A stretch of DNA of 64,000 bases, taken from assembly GCA_035291665.1 (NCBI GenBank), contig DATDRP010000006.1:9786-73785 (forward strand), given 5' to 3'. Made by a program: the position numbers and the translations under genes. This DNA comes from Patescibacteria group bacterium. Its GTDB lineage: Bacteria > Patescibacteriota > Microgenomatia > UBA8517. Each line of letters opens with the position of its first letter. The stretch's first letter is position 1. This document shows positions 16,966 through 40,980 of the stretch, in pieces. Under the pieces are notes generated by a model. That model saw nothing but the letters and a program-made list of their open reading frames with translations. It was not told the DNA's origin and searched no databases.

Positions 16966-17294
16966 GTGTGTTTGACGTTATTCAAATTGGAATTACTCAA
17001 ATATGCTTGAAGTTTTTTAGTAAATTCAGAATCAGGTAGTTCCTGTTTGGCCAGATTCAGTAGTTTTTCAGCCTCTTCCCGCGAGGCGGGTCGATTAACA
17101 GATTTTATAATATCGGTAACCTCATGAACGAAAAGTGATTCTTTATCATCTCTAACCCAGCCGGTTTTGCCGGGTACTAAACTTCGGCCGAAATTAATTG
17201 ATGAGTAAGTAAGCCGGGACTTTAGCGGCAAGTCTTTAATTAAACAAATTCCCATACCGTTTCCCCATAAATTCAAACGATTAGCCTCAATCAT
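16962..17294 (-). CDS. hypothetical protein (110 aa)
   Basis: Intact ORF with no motif recognised. Confidence 0.3.
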   Translation of the reverse strand: MIEANRLNLWGNGMGICLIKDLPLKSRLTYSSINFGRSLVPGKTGWVRDDKESLFVHEVTDIIKSVNRPASREEAEKLLNLAKQELPDSEFTKKLQAYLSNSNLNNVKHT

Positions 17295-18877: not shown

Positions 18878-19423
18878 GTGTCTGTAAATATTACATATTT
18901 TGTTCACGGAACCACCATAGATAACGAGAAGGATATATCCTCGGGTTGGTCGGATGCCGAACTTTCAAAATTAGGCAAAAAACAATCAAGAGAGTTGGTT
19001 GAAAAAATAACGAATATTAAATTTAATGTTATATTTTGTTCAGACCTCAAAAGAGCCGTTGACTCTGCAAATATCACCTTCGGTAGGAACGTTGAAATTA
19101 TTAGTGACGCGAGATTACGGGAATGTAATTATGGAGATCTTAACGGCATGCTTTCGAATGTAGTCGAACCGCTTCAGGAAGAAAATATTACAAAAAGATT
19201 TCCCAATGGTGAGAGTTATGAAGATGTTAAAGAAAGGATTCAGCATTTTTTGGAATTCTTAAAAAAGAATTATGATGGTAAACATATTGGGATTGTCGTC
19301 CACAAAGCACCTCAATTAGCTCTTGACGTTTTGCTAAAAGGAAAAACTTGGGAGCAAGCATTTGCAGAGGATTGGAGAAAGAATAAAGCCTGGCAACCAG
19401 GTTGGGATTATCTTCTCGAATAA
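18878..19423 (+). CDS. histidine phosphatase superfamily (PGAM/SixA-like) protein
   Basis: GTG start. YFVHGTTIDNE...GWSDAELSKLGKKQSREL resembles the RHGxT...G...QA motif. Moderate similarity only. Confidence 0.5.
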   Translation: MSVNITYFVHGTTIDNEKDISSGWSDAELSKLGKKQSRELVEKITNIKFNVIFCSDLKRAVDSANITFGRNVEIISDARLRECNYGDLNGMLSNVVEPLQEENITKRFPNGESYEDVKERIQHFLEFLKKNYDGKHIGIVVHKAPQLALDVLLKGKTWEQAFAEDWRKNKAWQPGWDYLLE

Positions 19424-19488
19424 TTTGCTATGGAACGTCTGACGTTCTCTGAGGAAGGTTTGACGTTCTTCAAACTAACTTTGAAGAG
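19424..19488. repeat. intergenic repeat A (tttgctatggaacgtctgacgttctctgaggaaggTTTGACGTTCTTCAAACTAActttgaagag)
   Basis: Begins immediately after the stop at 19423. The 5' 45 nt recur at 20719-20763 and the GTTCTTCAAA(T/C)TA(G/A) core recurs at 20806-20836, 21469-21490, 22078-22097 and 22747-22778. Confidence 0.7.
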
Positions 19489-20388: not shown

Positions 20389-20718
20389 TTGTCTTCAGAT
20401 AAGCCTCTGAATCCTTCGACAAAACTTAAGCTCGTGATAAAATCATGTCTCATGAAAGAGCAATTATTAATATGTTCAGGAGAACATTGGGAAGGAAATG
20501 ATTTGATGGGGATAAGCATTCATATTAATAAGCTTGATGGGGATAATTTGGGAAACTTTGTGGGGTATATGAGTATAAAACCAATGGGTATAAATACGGC
20601 TGTTGAGATTGCTATGCGATCCTTAGAACAATGTGGTTATAAGACGCTAGCGATTAAGGATGGTAAATTAATTGATAGTGACGGACAAAAAATAAATGCA
20701 CCTTTTATAAAAAAATAA
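20389..20718 (+). CDS. hypothetical small protein (109 aa)
   Basis: Intact ORF immediately followed by repeat B. Confidence 0.3.
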   Translation: MSSDKPLNPSTKLKLVIKSCLMKEQLLICSGEHWEGNDLMGISIHINKLDGDNLGNFVGYMSIKPMGINTAVEIAMRSLEQCGYKTLAIKDGKLIDSDGQKINAPFIKK

Positions 20719-20836
20719 TTTGCTATGGAACGTCTGAAGTTCTCCGAGGGAAGTTTGACTGAGCCCAGTCAAACTGGGTTGTCGAGCTAGACTCGATCTG
20801 ACTTGGTTTGACGTTCTTCGAATTAACTCAAAGTCG
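20719..20836. repeat. intergenic repeat B (copy of A carrying a 46-nt insertion with hairpins cccagtcaaactggg and tcgagctagactcga)
   Basis: tttgctatggaacgtctgaagttctccgagggaagtttgac + insertion + ggtttgacgttcttcgaattaactcaaagtcg, compared directly with repeat A. Confidence 0.7.
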
Positions 20837-22746: not shown

Positions 22747-22778
22747 GGACGTTTGATGTTCTTCAAATTAGATTTTTT
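22747..22778. repeat. intergenic repeat C (ggacgTTTGATGTTCTTCAAATTAGatttttt)
   Basis: The same core as A, B, D and E, located after the stop at 22727 and followed by TATAAT at 22775-22780. Confidence 0.6.
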
Positions 22779-23550: not shown

Positions 23551-23571
23551 AAACTCTTAACTTTTTAATCT

Positions 23572-23613
23572 GCGTTCAAGAAAACCCCGCCCTTTAGGGG
23601 TGGGGGATGTCAT
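23572..23613. repeat. partial palindromic element (gcgttcaagaaaaccccgccctttaggggtggggGATGTCAT)
   Basis: Shares gcgttcaagaaaac with 5322-5335, the aaccccgccc...gggg hairpin with 27852-27875, and ends in the GGATGTCAT half-site. It sits in a convergent intergenic gap. Confidence 0.55.
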
Positions 23614-26998: not shown

Positions 26999-28588
26999 CT
27001 AAACAGGATTAGTTAGGGTGTATTTATCTCTTATTGCTTGGGTGTCAACATCTTTTATATCTTTATACTGCAGATACTCCAATAAATTGAAACCACGGAT
27101 GTCGGGATTTTTGTATTTGTTTTGCAGATATTCAATTTTAAAGAGTAAGATCCATAAACCATCAGATTCGGCTTGTTTTTTCTCCGTTTCGGTTACCGGA
27201 CCGGAAGATCTGACAATCTCATTCAGATGAGTTTTATACGAAAGTGAATCGCTCGAAAGTCTTGAAAGATATTGCATGTCAACTCCTTGACCGGTTGTTG
27301 CCCGGTGGAAATGGTAAATAAGGTAATCAAAATTTGCCAAATTGATAAGAATTAAAATTAATCCCGTATAGATTACGGACTTGGTAAGAAAGTATTTTTT
27401 CTCAATATTTTTCAGGAATGTATATAAATAAATTGTGAATATCCCCAAAATCCAGGTTGCAACTGCGAATCCGTAAAGTCTTTTATAAGTAAAACCCCAG
27501 GCGCTTGAATATTCATAAACACTTTTGTATGCCATGAATGCGAGAAAAATTCCTTCAACAAGAAGGACAAGCGCCAGTTTTTGATTATACTTTTTCTTTT
27601 CTTTGTCGGCGTAGAGAAGTGCCAAAACAATTACTGCAACAATGGAGAGCTGGGTAAATACTTCATTCGCATAATTTGAATAAGTATATCCAAGAGCGCT
27701 TAGGGTTTCTTGAGATGAAAAATATAGCTGGAATTGGGTAATGAAAAAAATTAGAAGTACTGCCGAAACCGCGATTTTGGGTATTAATAAGTTTAAGCCT
27801 AGTCTATTAGTAATCTTAAAACCTTCTTTTTTATTCATAGCAATTTCAAGGAAACCCCGCCCTTGGCGGGGAGGAATTGAACTTGATATGTCATCCTCCT
27901 TCAGAGGGAACCACGGACCGTGGTCCGTGGAGGATGTCATGAAAGTTGCTACCCTGGGTATTAAGAAGGCTGAACCTATAAAAAAGATTAATCTGATAAT
28001 CCACTGAAATATAGCCTCAGTTAATTTGATATTTCCCAAACCTATTAAATCGGCAACCTCAAGTAAAAGTTTTTCAAAGAATGGATTGGCGGATGCAAGA
28101 AGCGGCAGGATTACGGCCAAAATCGCCAATGTGATAAGGGTGATGGCGATTGTGTTAATTGTGCTTTCGCGCTTTCTTTCATTAGCAACAGGTTTCTTGA
28201 ATTCCAATTGATATTCATTTCGTATGAATACACTTTGCAGGAAAAGTATTAAGGGTGCAAAAATTAATGATAATATACTTTCCGGATCCTCCTTTTTAGT
28301 CAGGACAAAAAGAATACCGAAGTAAAAAATTGCGAGGAGATTAAGCATTATTACCGACGGCTCACTTCGGATCGTTAGTGCGATCGATAATATTAATGCG
28401 ATCGCGAAAAATGCTGTGGTGTCCGGGGTTTTGTCGTTTTTTATATAGAAAGCAAGGAAGGCAAATGAGATTAACGAAATTGAGAGGCCTAGATGGGGGA
28501 AGAATCCGAATGGAATTGATAACAAAGAAAAGGCGGCGCACGCGAAAATAATTAAAGCGGATATCTTACCCTTTTGAGTCAATTGCAT
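26999..28588 (-). CDS. polytopic membrane protein (529 aa), function unknown; carries an in-frame palindromic-element insertion
   Basis: More than 12 hydrophobic helices. The hydrophilic loop FMTSSTDHGPWFPLKEDDISSSIPPRQGRGFLEIAMNKK is encoded entirely by the repeat element at 27850-27940, and the reading frame is preserved. Confidence 0.5.
   Translation of the reverse strand: MQLTQKGKISALIIFACAAFSLLSIPFGFFPHLGLSISLISFAFLAFYIKNDKTPDTTAFFAIALILSIALTIRSEPSVIMLNLLAIFYFGILFVLTKKEDPESILSLIFAPLILFLQSVFIRNEYQLEFKKPVANERKRESTINTIAITLITLAILAVILPLLASANPFFEKLLLEVADLIGLGNIKLTEAIFQWIIRLIFFIGSAFLIPRVATFMTSSTDHGPWFPLKEDDISSSIPPRQGRGFLEIAMNKKEGFKITNRLGLNLLIPKIAVSAVLLIFFITQFQLYFSSQETLSALGYTYSNYANEVFTQLSIVAVIVLALLYADKEKKKYNQKLALVLLVEGIFLAFMAYKSVYEYSSAWGFTYKRLYGFAVATWILGIFTIYLYTFLKNIEKKYFLTKSVIYTGLILILINLANFDYLIYHFHRATTGQGVDMQYLSRLSSDSLSYKTHLNEIVRSSGPVTETEKKQAESDGLWILLFKIEYLQNKYKNPDIRGFNLLEYLQYKDIKDVDTQAIRDKYTLTNPV
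27850..27940. repeat. palindromic repeat element, copy 3 (module aaccccgccc...ggcgggg plus ATGTCATCCTCC...GGAGGATGTCAT) inside a CDS
   Basis: ATGTCATCCTCC at 27888-27899, inner hairpin cacggacc/ggtccgtg, GGAGGATGTCAT at 27929-27940, and ggaaaccccgcccttggcggggagga at 27850-27875. Confidence 0.75.
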
Positions 28589-40789: not shown

Positions 40790-40980
40790 CATGAAGCAAT
40801 TATATGAAGCTCCACTGGCTGACGCCACTGGTAACATCTGCTCTAGCTTCGCCTGCCTACCGGCAAGGCAGGTTCATCCACTAGCTTATGGTTCGACAAC
40901 GCTTACCATCCTGAGTATGTCGAAGGATGCTCATGGTTTTATGCGAAGGAGGATGGAGGAGTGCTAAGTTAGAATGTAGT
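40790..40980. repeat. degenerate member of the palindromic element family in a divergent intergenic gap
   Basis: ccactgg...ccactgg, gcctgcctaccggcaaggcagg (compare gcctgccggcaggc at 39-52), catcctgagtatgtcgaaggatg (compare catcctcc...ggaggatg), and gaaggaggatggaggag. Confidence 0.45.

What the first reader, a model, noticed from the sequence alone, without database searches (positions are those of the whole stretch)
27850..27940. GC-rich palindromic element inserted in-frame inside a membrane-protein gene
The 529-aa polytopic membrane ORF (26999-28588, minus) runs straight through a 91-bp nested-hairpin element. Translating the reverse complement gives FMTSSTDHGPWFPLKEDDISSSIPPRQGRGFLEIAMNKK, a hydrophilic loop between hydrophobic helices, with no stop or frameshift. 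The same element is intergenic at 58-110 and 5375-5425. In-frame palindromic-element insertion into coding sequence is established for Rickettsia palindromic elements. Seeing the same behaviour from an unrelated element family in an AT-rich small genome suggests an independently evolved, ORF-tolerated mobile palindrome.
Basis: partly seen in the sequence, partly recalled or inferred. Interest (0 to 1): 0.75.

Follow-up and report, generated by a model that had tools for sequence, protein, structure and literature searches.

The report
Transposon-end relic inserted in-frame in gene
A 102-base hairpin-rich mobile element, made of the two fused ends of an IS200/IS605-type transposon, sits in-frame inside a membrane-protein gene of a Woesebacteria (CPR) genome and adds a 34-residue loop; relatives of the element do the same in many other genes of this lineage, much as the palindromic elements of Rickettsia do.

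Summary
ORF 26999-28588(-), a 529-aa DUF4153 protein, reads through a GC-rich double-hairpin element. Fifteen Woesebacteria orthologs (about 496 aa) lack exactly 34 residues there, which is 102 nt at 27839-27940. The closest ortholog's DNA shows a clean empty site with no target duplication.

The element is not an orphan palindrome. It belongs to a family of about 105-111 nt found across Woesebacteria/Microgenomates (about 70 copies in 64 loci). The family has invariant sequence blocks, two covarying hairpins, TTAT/TCAT on its 5' side and an invariant ...GGAGGATGTCAT 3' end.

- The right half matches the right end of haloarchaeal tnpB (IS1341-type) insertion sequences.
- The left half matches the left end of a tnpB element in a 484-kb phage.
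- Whole copies hit Rfam HgcC below threshold.

It meets all the structural criteria tested for a PATE, a transposase-less IS200/IS605 derivative. No cognate transposase was found.

In-frame coding insertions recur. They occur in MurC, a P-type ATPase, glycosyltransferases and a second DUF4153 site. About 12 unrelated long proteins in public data also carry the element's peptide internally.

So the RPE-like behaviour is supported, but the element belongs to an already known kind, not a new one. No tnpA or tnpB was found in the DNA sampled.

The parts
26999..28588 (-). DUF4153 polytopic membrane-protein gene (529 aa), host of the insertion
   Evidence: The ORF is listed. Pfam PF13687 matches at 1.3e-34 over residues 62-449. 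There are 71 homologs and the best are Cand. Woesebacteria. Identity to the closest ortholog is 70% N-terminal and 80% C-terminal of the insert.
27839..27940 (+). PATE-like element copy, 102 nt, antisense to the gene; it encodes residues 217-250 (MTSSTDHGPWFPLKEDDISSSIPPRQGRGFLEIA)
   Evidence: A 34-column gap in 15 orthologs. Empty-site DNA in L077. A score of 98.6 bits (E = 2.5e-20) to covariance model R1 of the family. AlphaFold puts it in the lowest-confidence coil, residues 211-264.
27835..27838 (+). TCAT immediately 5' of the element: the target (transposon-adjacent) motif. It is TTAT in all 32 canonical copies aligned.
   Evidence: The ortholog's empty site reads ...ACCCAT|GAATG; the window reads ...ATTCAT|[102 nt]|GAAAG.
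27855..27871 (+). Left-end hairpin hp1 (CCCCGCC-CTT-GGCGGGG), flanked by the conserved GGAAAC and GAGGAATTGAAC blocks
   Evidence: The stem covaries across the family.
27888..27940 (+). Right-end module: ATGTCATCCTCC, an internal loop, hairpin hp2 (27911-27930), and the invariant terminus GGAGGATGTCAT
   Evidence: The terminus and the AGAGGAAAC-hairpin context are the same as at the 3' end of haloarchaeal tnpB elements.
5316..5425 (+). Full-length intergenic copy (110 nt), preceded by TTAT at 5312-5315
   Evidence: R1 score of 110 bits. Rfam HgcC at 30 bits, E = 1.3e-5.
30..110 (+). Rearranged copy at the window edge: the right end is intact, and hp1 is replaced by a CCTGCCTGCCGGCAGGC module
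   Evidence: R1 score of 57 bits.
23564..23613 (+). Core-deleted (terminal-only) copy: left-end leader plus one hairpin joined to ...GGATGTCAT
   Evidence: The product looks like a repeat-mediated deletion between the two GGATG repeats, as described for PATEs (PMC3119063).

Best explanation
The insert is a non-autonomous derivative of an IS200/IS605-family (IS1341/tnpB-type) insertion sequence, a PATE. About 60 nt of left end and 50 nt of right end are fused, with no coding capacity.

Elements of this kind move as single-stranded DNA ('peel and paste'). A Y1 HUH transposase (TnpA), supplied in trans, binds the two subterminal hairpins. It cuts after the 5'-flanking tetranucleotide and after the element's own 3' TCAT. 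It then re-inserts the strand 3' of a TTAT/TCAT site in single-stranded DNA at the replication fork, without duplicating the target.

Here a copy landed 3' of the TCAT formed by the Asn-Met codons of a loop of the DUF4153 gene, in the orientation antisense to the gene. The copy is 102 nt (3 x 34) and its antisense frame has no stop codon. The gene therefore stays open, and the protein gains a 34-residue, probably disordered, hydrophilic loop between two helices.

Copies that land in genes survive only if they have these properties. That is why the few coding copies are all multiples of 3 in length and all open.

Shown here: the insertion and its borders; the absence of a target duplication; family membership; hairpin covariation; the target motif; the strand bias; end homology to tnpB elements; and recurrence in other genes.

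Inferred, not shown: catalysis by TnpA; that the gene is still expressed and functional; and that the loop is translated.
For: 1. Insertion. Fifteen orthologs lack exactly residues 217-250. DNA of the closest ortholog gives ...TTTTTTACCCAT|GAATGTAGCC against the window's ...TTTTTTATTCAT|[102 nt]|GAAAGTTGC, with no duplication beyond the ambiguous TCAT. Both flanks stay 70% and 80% identical to that ortholog.

2. Family. The genome scan gave 76 loci. Of these, 64 are Woesebacteria, Microgenomates or Patescibacteria MAGs that carry the element. The alignment of 33 copies has invariant blocks and 14 base pairs with compensatory changes, all but two of them in the stems of hp1 and hp2. Model R1 finds about 70 copies in 0.5 Mb.

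3. Borders. TTAT precedes all 32 canonical copies and TCAT precedes the in-gene copy. GGAGGATGTCAT ends every copy. The two flanks differ, so this is not a target duplication. The hairpins lie about 18 nt from the 5' cut and 10-11 nt from the 3' cut. They share the context GAAAC-hairpin-GAKGA.

4. Homology of the ends.
- The right half hits 25 plasmid records, mostly haloarchaeal. In the two records examined, the match lies 7-20 nt after the stop codon of a 449-aa TnpB (OrfB_IS605 plus TNB domains), on the same strand. It reads AGAGGAAAC-hairpin-GAGGATGTCAT.
- The left half (TTAT, leader, hairpin, GGATGAATTGAAC) is 83% identical over 52 nt to the sequence immediately 5' of a 405-aa tnpB in phage LR756508.1. 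R1 scores it 35 bits, E = 6.5e-7.
- Rfam HgcC matches whole copies at 29-34 bits, E from 1e-5 to 6e-3. The literature has linked HgcC to IS1341 right ends and to PATEs (PMC4615843).

5. PATE hallmarks (PMC3119063) all fit: no inverted terminal repeats, near-terminal palindromes, no duplication, a 5' targeting oligonucleotide, a conserved 3' oligonucleotide, terminal-only deletion derivatives (23564-23613), and other small repeats nested in the copies.

6. Strand bias. All 4 window copies are on the G-rich + strand. In the loci, 50 of 70 copies have their top strand on the locally G-rich strand (p = 4e-4). This is what insertion into the lagging-strand template would give.

7. Tolerance. The insert lies in the lowest-pLDDT coil, between helices 192-222 and 268-289.

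8. Recurrence in other genes, in-frame:
- MurC (L030), a P-type ATPase (L058), a GT4 glycosyltransferase (L059) and an ALG10-like membrane protein (L063).
- A separate 129-nt TTAT...TCAT insert in another DUF4153 ortholog.
- 22 library proteins of at least 200 aa that carry the element's sense-frame peptide.
Against: - No tnpA or tnpB was found by tblastn in the window or in about 0.5 Mb of Woesebacteria loci. The IS608 TnpA query was validated against PDB entry 2a6m.
- The closest relatives of the phage TnpB are from Salinibacter and hypersaline samples, not from CPR bacteria. A cognate mobilising enzyme in these genomes is therefore unproven.
- Left-end similarity to the haloarchaeal elements was not detected.
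- The HgcC hits are below Rfam's gathering score, and the in-gene copy alone gives no Rfam hit.
- The strand bias is confounded with gene orientation.
- Expression of the extended protein is not shown.
- The AlphaFold model is of modest quality (mean pLDDT 61).
Confidence: 0.8

Rival explanations
1. The element is primarily a functional structured RNA (an HgcC-like small RNA, or a remnant TnpB guide-RNA scaffold), kept in many copies for that role. On this view the copy inside the DUF4153 gene is an antisense RNA gene or a regulatory hairpin, not selfish DNA.
For: - The hairpin stems covary strongly while the flanking blocks are invariant across species whose orthologous proteins are only about 60% identical.
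- Copies hit the expressed archaeal RNA family HgcC.
- PATE-derived RNAs are transcribed and have a phenotype in Halobacterium (PMC4615843).
- PATEs often encode guide RNAs that are used in trans (PMC10055086).
Against: - Covariation is equally expected if the hairpins are needed in single-stranded DNA for a transposase.
- Presence or absence between orthologous sites, near-identical copies within a genome but not between genomes, a fixed 5' target motif, and insertions into unrelated coding sequences all point to mobility.
- No tnpB was found that could use such an RNA.
- Only about 50 nt of right end is retained, which is shorter than known guide-RNA scaffolds.
- The two readings are not mutually exclusive.
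Confidence: 0.12
2. The insertion has inactivated the gene, or is on the way to doing so. On this view the 529-aa ORF is a young pseudogene that happens still to be open.
For: - The mRNA would contain a hairpin of -42.6 kcal/mol.
- No expression data exist.
- The insertion is restricted to this lineage.
Against: - The insert is exactly 3n and free of stop codons. The same antisense frame carries stops in most other copies, for example from the TTTA loops.
- Both halves keep 70-80% identity to the nearest ortholog with no frameshifts.
- Essential genes such as murC carry the element in the same way.
Confidence: 0.08
3. The element is removed from the transcript (intron-like or IStron-like) or from the protein, so the mature product lacks the loop.
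For: CPR genomes are rich in introns, and IS200/IS605 elements can be fused to group I introns (IStrons; PMC13011429).
Against: - The element is only about 105 nt.
- No intron or ribozyme family matches, at gathering or at permissive thresholds.
- The window copy is antisense to the gene, whereas the other coding copies are sense. A single RNA-level mechanism cannot serve both orientations.
- There are no intein motifs.
Confidence: 0.03
4. Assembly artefact: a repeat was mis-joined into the gene during metagenome assembly.
For: The element is repeated within the genome, and repeats can confuse assemblers.
Against: - The junctions are exact, in-frame and at the family's canonical borders.
- The copy is unique in sequence within the window (its hp1/hp2 combination).
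- Analogous insertions occur in many independent assemblies.
Confidence: 0.02

Closest known systems
PATEs (palindrome-associated transposable elements) of IS200/IS605-type transposons, described in Haloquadratum walsbyi (PMC3119063) and noted in Geobacillus (PMC10055086)
   Same: - No terminal inverted repeats and no target duplication.
- Subterminal hairpins at both ends.
- A 4-nt targeting sequence on the 5' side and a conserved 3' terminal oligonucleotide.
- Too short to encode a protein.
- Terminal-only deletion derivatives exist.
- Copies are invaded by other small repeats.
- The ends are homologous to those of tnpB-carrying elements.
   Different: - The host is a CPR bacterium (Woesebacteria) with a genome of about 1 Mb.
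- No tnpA or tnpB was found in the DNA sampled.
- A sizeable set of copies is read through in-frame inside genes. I did not find this reported for PATEs.
Rfam RF00062, HgcC family RNA (GC-rich non-coding RNAs of AT-rich hyperthermophilic archaea)
   Same: - The same two-hairpin layout.
- Shared blocks: hairpin-GAUGAnnUGAAC ... GGAAAC-hairpin-GAGGAnGUCA.
- Full-length alignments to the model.
- HgcC has been linked to the right-end tetraloop of IS1341-type elements (PMC4615843).
   Different: - Scores are 29-34 bits against a gathering score of 50.
- 37 model positions are replaced by 14 nt.
- The hosts here are bacterial.
- The in-gene copy alone gives no hit.
- Expression as an RNA is not shown here.
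Rickettsia palindromic elements (RPEs; Ogata et al. 2000, as summarised in PMC10969869)
   Same: - A repeated, palindrome-rich element of about 100-150 nt in a small AT-rich genome.
- Inserted in-frame into many unrelated genes.
- Adds a conserved peptide that appears to be tolerated at loops.
   Different: - No sequence relationship was tested or is expected.
- The origin of RPEs is unknown, whereas this family can be traced to IS200/IS605 ends.
- Only about 7% of sampled copies are in genes, against nearly half for some RPE families.
Right end and guide-RNA (omega/reRNA, sotRNA) region of tnpB (IS1341-type) insertion sequences
   Same: - An identical terminal 12-mer, GGAGGATGTCAT.
- The same AGAGGAAAC-hairpin context as at the 3' end of the Haloarcula and Natrinema tnpB elements.
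- A left end like that of the phage tnpB element.
   Different: - There is no tnpB gene between the ends.
- Only the last hairpin of the scaffold is retained.
REP/REPIN elements with RAYT transposases
   Same: Short GC-rich hairpin repeats, mostly intergenic, thought to be mobilised by a Y1 (HUH) enzyme.
   Different: - There is no GTAG or CGTC tag.
- The two hairpins are in direct, not inverted, arrangement.
- The ends match tnpB elements rather than RAYT-flanking REPs.
- No RAYT-like gene was detected.

Membership tests
PATE / non-autonomous IS200/IS605 (IS1341-type) derivative | No terminal inverted repeats; imperfect palindromes close to both termini | tested here: met
   The ends AACAGC... 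and ...GTCAT are not inverted repeats. hp1 lies about 18 nt from the 5' end and hp2 10-11 nt from the 3' end, and both covary.
PATE / non-autonomous IS200/IS605 (IS1341-type) derivative | No target-site duplication | tested here: met
   The empty site in the ortholog compared with the occupied site in the window. The 5' flank TTAT differs from the 3' end TCAT in all 32 canonical copies.
PATE / non-autonomous IS200/IS605 (IS1341-type) derivative | Insertion 3' of a specific 4-5-nt target, and a conserved terminal oligonucleotide at the 3' end | tested here: met
   TTAT precedes all 32 canonical copies and TCAT precedes the in-gene copy. GGAGGATGTCAT is invariant at the 3' end.
PATE / non-autonomous IS200/IS605 (IS1341-type) derivative | Ends homologous to those of transposase- or tnpB-carrying IS200/IS605 elements | tested here: met
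   The right end matches the 3' flank of haloarchaeal tnpB genes. The left end matches the 5' flank of a phage tnpB. No single full-length element was found that matches both ends.
PATE / non-autonomous IS200/IS605 (IS1341-type) derivative | Strand-specific insertion (top strand on the lagging-strand template) | tested here: inconclusive
   4 of 4 window copies and 50 of 70 locus copies are on the locally G-rich strand (p = 4e-4). The bias is confounded with gene orientation, and no closed replichore map was available.
PATE / non-autonomous IS200/IS605 (IS1341-type) derivative | A Y1 transposase (TnpA) in the same genome able to mobilise it | tested here: inconclusive
   tblastn with a validated IS608 TnpA and three TnpB proteins found nothing in the window plus about 0.5 Mb of loci. 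Whole genomes could not be searched.
Rfam RF00062 HgcC | Score at or above the family's gathering threshold (50 bits) | tested here: not met
   Canonical copies score 29-34 bits. The in-gene copy gives no hit at E <= 1.
Rfam RF00062 HgcC | Two-hairpin architecture with the conserved linker and 3' blocks | tested here: met
   The full-length model alignment shares GAUGAnnUGAAC and GGAAAC-hairpin-GAGGAnGUCA.
Rickettsia palindromic elements | Repeated palindromic element found in-frame in many unrelated protein genes | tested here: met
Rickettsia palindromic elements | Sequence membership in one of the RPE families of Rickettsia | not tested
   No RPE model or sequence was available in the tools. 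The hosts and composition differ, so membership is not claimed.
REP/REPIN-RAYT | GTAG or CGTC tag at one end; inverted REP doublets; a linked RAYT gene | tested here: not met
   There is no such tag, and the hairpins are in direct order. No Y1 gene was found in the sampled DNA.
Classical MITE | Terminal inverted repeats and a target-site duplication | tested here: not met
Group I intron / IStron | An intron ribozyme core, in sense orientation within the host gene | tested here: not met
   No Rfam intron match. The element is about 105 nt, and the window copy is antisense to the gene.

The most novel reading that the evidence does not exclude
The family may have adapted to life inside coding sequence in gene-dense CPR genomes.

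- Its commonest lengths are multiples of three (32 of 55 simple copies).
- One sense frame, encoding ...DELNADMSSS..., is open in 24 of 33 copies.
- Stop trinucleotides in the variable hairpins avoid that frame.

On this reading the element would be a 'translation-compatible' transposon relic that persists, and perhaps spreads, as protein loops without a resident transposase. A further possibility is that the copies still act as orphan guide-RNA modules for a TnpB delivered by phage.
Probability: 0.15. Interest if true: 0.75.

Novelty: new member of a known kind. Interest (0 to 1): 0.55.

Why it matters
1. It gives a traceable origin for an RPE-like phenomenon. Coding-sequence palindromes in a reduced genome can be plain IS200/IS605 end-relics, which suggests a hypothesis to test for RPEs and similar elements.

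2. It documents PATE-type elements in Candidate Phyla Radiation bacteria. Mobile DNA is thought scarce there, and my literature searches found no description of such elements.

3. It ties together sequences from four very different settings through one conserved pair of transposon ends: Woesebacteria, haloarchaeal tnpB elements, a phage from a hypersaline-type lineage, and the long-orphan Rfam family HgcC. This supports reading HgcC as a transposon-end RNA.

4. It has practical consequences. Public MAG annotations call dozens of spurious 40-75-aa 'hypothetical proteins' on these repeats. Genes that carry the element, such as MurC, P-type ATPases and glycosyltransferases, have 34-37-residue inserts that will disturb alignments and structure predictions.

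Tried and rejected
- Known RNA families. Rfam at gathering thresholds gave only tRNA-Cys. I considered hammerhead-like and C/D-box-like readings of the CUGA and GAUGA blocks and dropped them, because the core positions do not fit and Rfam gives no support.
- Full-length elements in the 8-kb loci. A regex search for a left end and a right end 1-2 kb apart gave only chance matches inside ordinary genes, for example L066.
- Transposase genes. tblastn with three haloarchaeal or phage TnpB proteins and with IS608 TnpA found nothing in the window or the loci.
- Word-indexed search with the 43-aa peptide profile. It returned only short ORFs of 76 aa or less. The exhaustive representative search was needed to find the long host proteins. 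One of its hits, P0180, is a false positive, a eukaryote-type repeat protein.
- Viral contig scans. The right-end pattern found nothing, and the left-end pattern found one chance match inside a large phage protein.
- Relatives of the phage TnpB. They are Salinibacter and hypersaline, not CPR, so they do not identify a Woesebacterial partner.
- PDB alignments of the MurC and P-type ATPase hosts. They confirm the identity of the proteins, but HMMER aligned the insert region poorly. The position of the inserts there rests on inspection of conserved flanking motifs.
- Selection for an open sense frame. The test is significant only when non-independent copies are counted (7 of 61, p = 8e-5). With unique hairpins it is marginal (7/15/14, p = 0.05).
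- The 129-nt insert in the P0005 ortholog. It has the same TTAT...TCAT borders and similar blocks, but R1 does not detect it and it has no second copy in the sampled DNA. Its relationship to the family is therefore probable but not shown.
Full report
**1. What is in the sequence**

The window has about 35-42% G+C and positive GC skew almost throughout. ORF 26999-28588 on the minus strand encodes 529 aa. It matches Pfam DUF4153 (PF13687) as one stretch over residues 62-449.

Between 27839 and 27940 the + strand carries a GC-rich nested-hairpin sequence:
- hp1: CCCCGCC-CTT-GGCGGGG at 27855-27871
- hp2: CCACGGAC-CGTG-GTCCGTGG at 27911-27930
- an outer stem: ATGTCATCCTCC / GGAGGATGTCAT

Both strands fold far better than shuffled controls, with z of -4.4 and -4.0. 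The core pattern occurs three times in the window and never in 100 shuffles.

**2. It is an insertion**

The protein's 71 homologs are led by Candidatus Woesebacteria proteins of about 496 aa. In an alignment with 15 of them, the window protein alone has 34 extra residues, MTSSTDHGPWFPLKEDDISSSIPPRQGRGFLEIA (217-250), between the conserved ...PRVATF and MNKKE....

The DNA of the closest ortholog (L077) gives the empty site. In the orientation of the element it reads ...TTTTTTACCCAT|GAATGTAGCC. The window reads ...TTTTTTATTCAT|[102 nt]|GAAAGTTGCTACC.

Nothing is duplicated except that TCAT occurs both before the insert and as its last four bases. The borders can therefore be slid by up to 4 nt. 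Identity to that ortholog is 70% upstream and 80% downstream of the insert.

An AlphaFold model built on the 16-sequence alignment is of modest quality (mean pLDDT 61). It places residues 211-264 in its least confident, unstructured stretch, between helices 192-222 and 268-289.

**3. The family**

A scan of one genome per species for TCATCCTCC-N(15-45)-GGAGGATGTCAT returned 76 loci. Twelve are chance hits in GC-rich genomes. The other 64 are Woesebacteria, Microgenomates or Patescibacteria MAGs, including some labelled otherwise, and several of these genomes have many copies.

Extending the matches shows a unit of about 105-111 nt:

TTAT | AACAGCATTCAAGAAAAC - hp1 - GATGAATTGAACGCTGATATGTCATCCTCCTTTAGAGGGAAAC - hp2 - GGAGGATGTCAT |

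.

In 33 distinct copies the blocks are invariant or nearly so. The stems of hp1 and hp2 differ from genome to genome while keeping their pairing. Fourteen pairs show compensatory changes, and all but two of them lie in hp1 or hp2. Copies within one genome are nearly identical.

A covariance model (R1) scores the window copies as follows:
- the in-gene copy: 98.6 bits
- 5312-5427: 110 bits
- the rearranged copy at 30-112: 57 bits
- weak remnants at 23564 and 8395

R1 finds about 70 copies in 0.5 Mb of loci.

**4. What kind of element it is**

Four observations bear on this:
- The two ends are not inverted repeats.
- There is no target duplication.
- All 32 canonical copies in the alignment are preceded by TTAT, and the in-gene copy by TCAT.
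- Every copy ends in TCAT.

The hairpins sit about 18 nt inside the 5' border and 10-11 nt inside the 3' border. They share the context GAAAC-hairpin-GAKGA. From my own knowledge of IS608, this is the geometry of IS200/IS605 ends.

Three independent similarity results agree:

(a) Rfam at permissive thresholds aligns whole copies to HgcC (RF00062) at 29-34 bits. This is below the 50-bit gathering score, but E runs from 1e-5 to 6e-3 and the same blocks are shared. Gomes-Filho et al. had linked HgcC to the right-end tetraloop of IS1341-type tnpB elements and to PATEs (PMC4615843).

(b) blastn of the consensus against plasmids hits 25 records with its right half, mostly haloarchaeal. In Haloarcula pNG300 and in a Natrinema plasmid the match begins 7-20 nt after the stop codon of a 449-aa protein with OrfB_IS605 and Cas12f-like TNB domains, that is, a TnpB. 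It lies on the same strand and reads ...AGAGGAAAC-hairpin-GAGGATGTCAT|.

(c) blastn against phages hits the left half at 83% over 52 nt in LR756508.1. There, ATTAT|AGACACGTTCAAGAAAAT-hairpin-GGATGAATTGAAC lies immediately 5' of a 405-aa tnpB. The right end of that tnpB element has a related hairpin-GAGACGTCAA terminus. R1 scores this left end at 35 bits, E = 6.5e-7.

The definition of PATEs given for Haloquadratum fits point by point (PMC3119063):
- no inverted terminal repeats
- near-terminal palindromes
- no duplication
- a 4-5-nt targeting sequence at the 5' end
- a conserved 3' oligonucleotide
- terminal-only deletion products
- invasion by other small repeats

The window's 23564-23613 copy corresponds to a terminal-only deletion product. 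The accessory modules I saw nested in copies elsewhere correspond to invading small repeats.

I therefore file the element as a PATE-type IS200/IS605 derivative.

**5. Mobility and its limits**

The insertion is lineage-specific. Copies are homogeneous within genomes. Orientation is biased: all four window copies have their top strand on the G-rich + strand, and 50 of 70 locus copies lie on the locally G-rich strand (p = 4e-4). This is the direction expected for insertion into the lagging-strand template, although gene orientation is a confounder.

Against a currently active system:
- tblastn with the IS608 TnpA and with three TnpB proteins found nothing in the window or in about 0.5 Mb of Woesebacterial DNA. 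The TnpA sequence was recalled from memory and then validated against PDB entry 2a6m.
- The phage TnpB's relatives are Salinibacter and hypersaline sequences, not CPR.

Whole genomes could not be searched. The mobilising enzyme therefore remains inferred.

**6. In-frame coding insertions recur**

Of 73 family copies, five lie inside long ORFs that read straight through them:
- the window's DUF4153 gene, antisense to the gene
- MurC (L030), sense
- a P-type ATPase (L058), sense
- a GT4 glycosyltransferase (L059), sense
- an ALG10-like membrane protein (L063), sense

All five copies are multiples of three in length (102, 105 or 108 nt).

A different DUF4153 ortholog (P0005, L078) carries an independent 129-nt in-frame insert at another loop. 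It has the same TTAT|...TCAT| borders and similar internal blocks.

A profile of the sense-frame peptide (...DELNADMSSS...) was searched against 1.84 billion cluster representatives and found 121 proteins. Of these, 22 are at least 200 aa long, and about 12 have the peptide well inside the protein. They include O-antigen-ligase-like proteins, GT-C glycosyltransferases, a DUF4012 protein, a methyltransferase and a KH-domain protein. The remaining hits are short ORFs called on intergenic copies.

**7. Is the family shaped for translation?**

- Thirty-two of 55 simple copies have lengths divisible by three.
- The sense frame is open in 24 of 33 aligned copies.
- Stop trinucleotides in the variable parts avoid that frame: 7 of 61, p = 8e-5. 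With unique hairpins only, the split is 7/15/14, p = 0.05.

The copies share ancestry, so I regard this as suggestive and not as shown.

In the window copy the hairpin loops are CGTG and CTT. The common TTTA/TTCA loops would have put stop codons in the frame used by the gene. This is what survival of only translation-compatible copies would produce.

**8. Comparison and verdict**

In behaviour the element parallels the Rickettsia palindromic elements (PMC10969869). In anatomy and ancestry it is a PATE of the IS200/IS605 family and a sub-threshold relative of HgcC.

It is not any of the following:
- a REP/REPIN: it has no GTAG or CGTC tag, and its hairpins are in direct order
- a classical MITE: it has no terminal inverted repeats and makes no duplication
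- an intron: it matches no ribozyme family, it is too small, and the window copy is antisense to the gene

Full-text searches found no description of such elements in Woesebacteria or Patescibacteria.

The claim that the family evolved independently as a new kind of mobile palindrome does not hold. I rate it a new member of a known kind and of moderate interest.

Noticed in passing
window 16969-16990, 19457-19478, 20805-20826, 22750-22771 (and 19419-19464 / 20714-20759): A second intergenic repeat, GGTTTGACGTTCTTCAAAYTA. It has four copies, all on the + strand, and three of them lie within about 35 nt 3' of the end of a + strand gene. Two copies share a longer 46-nt unit at 91% identity, containing the palindrome GAACGTCTGACGTTC.
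   Followed up: partly
window 40840-40960: An intergenic GC-rich composite: the hairpin CCTGCCT-accggca-AGGCAGG followed by ...cctgagtatgtcgaaggatgctcat.... It resembles the accessory modules found nested in copies of the element in other genomes.
   Followed up: partly
window 8409-8440: TTGAAAAC followed by the 10-bp hairpin AACCCTCCGC-TTTC-GCGGAGGGTT, just beside tRNA-Cys (8293-8365). It could be a solo left-end-type hairpin remnant or a terminator. R1 scores it 21.6 bits.
   Followed up: no
L078 1471-3090 (protein P0005): Another Woesebacteria DUF4153 ortholog has an independent 129-nt (43-aa) in-frame antisense insert at a different loop. Its borders are TTAT|...TCAT| and it has LE/RE-like blocks, but R1 does not detect it.
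   Followed up: partly
L049, L057, L062, L071; L023-L067 (the LBWP01 loci); window 36-52, L005, L063: Other small repeats are nested inside copies of the element:
- a 44-nt unit ending GATACTGAGCTTGTCGAAGTA, inserted after ATGTCAT
- a 24-nt tandem unit, AAGCTTTGCTTTTGATAAAATCTT
- a CCTGCCTGCCGGCAGGC hairpin that replaces hp1

This is reminiscent of small mobile repeats that target PATEs in Haloquadratum.
   Followed up: partly
proteins P0072-P0133: Public annotations of Woesebacteria and Patescibacteria MAGs call dozens of 40-76-aa 'hypothetical proteins' that are just the sense-frame translation of intergenic copies of the element.
   Followed up: yes
L009, L011, L014, L016, L019, L021, L026, L030, L031, L037, L041, L042, L048, L051, L055, L065, L066, L068: These eighteen loci carry the Woesebacteria-type element but come from MAGs titled 'uncultured Gammaproteobacteria'. 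The 16 of them measured have 38-47% G+C. The taxonomic label looks doubtful.
   Followed up: no
L081 (LR756508.1 408262-414313): A 484-kb uncultured phage carries a tnpB-only IS whose left end is 83% identical to that of the Woesebacterial element. Its TnpB is closest to Salinibacter ruber and hypersaline sequences.
   Followed up: yes
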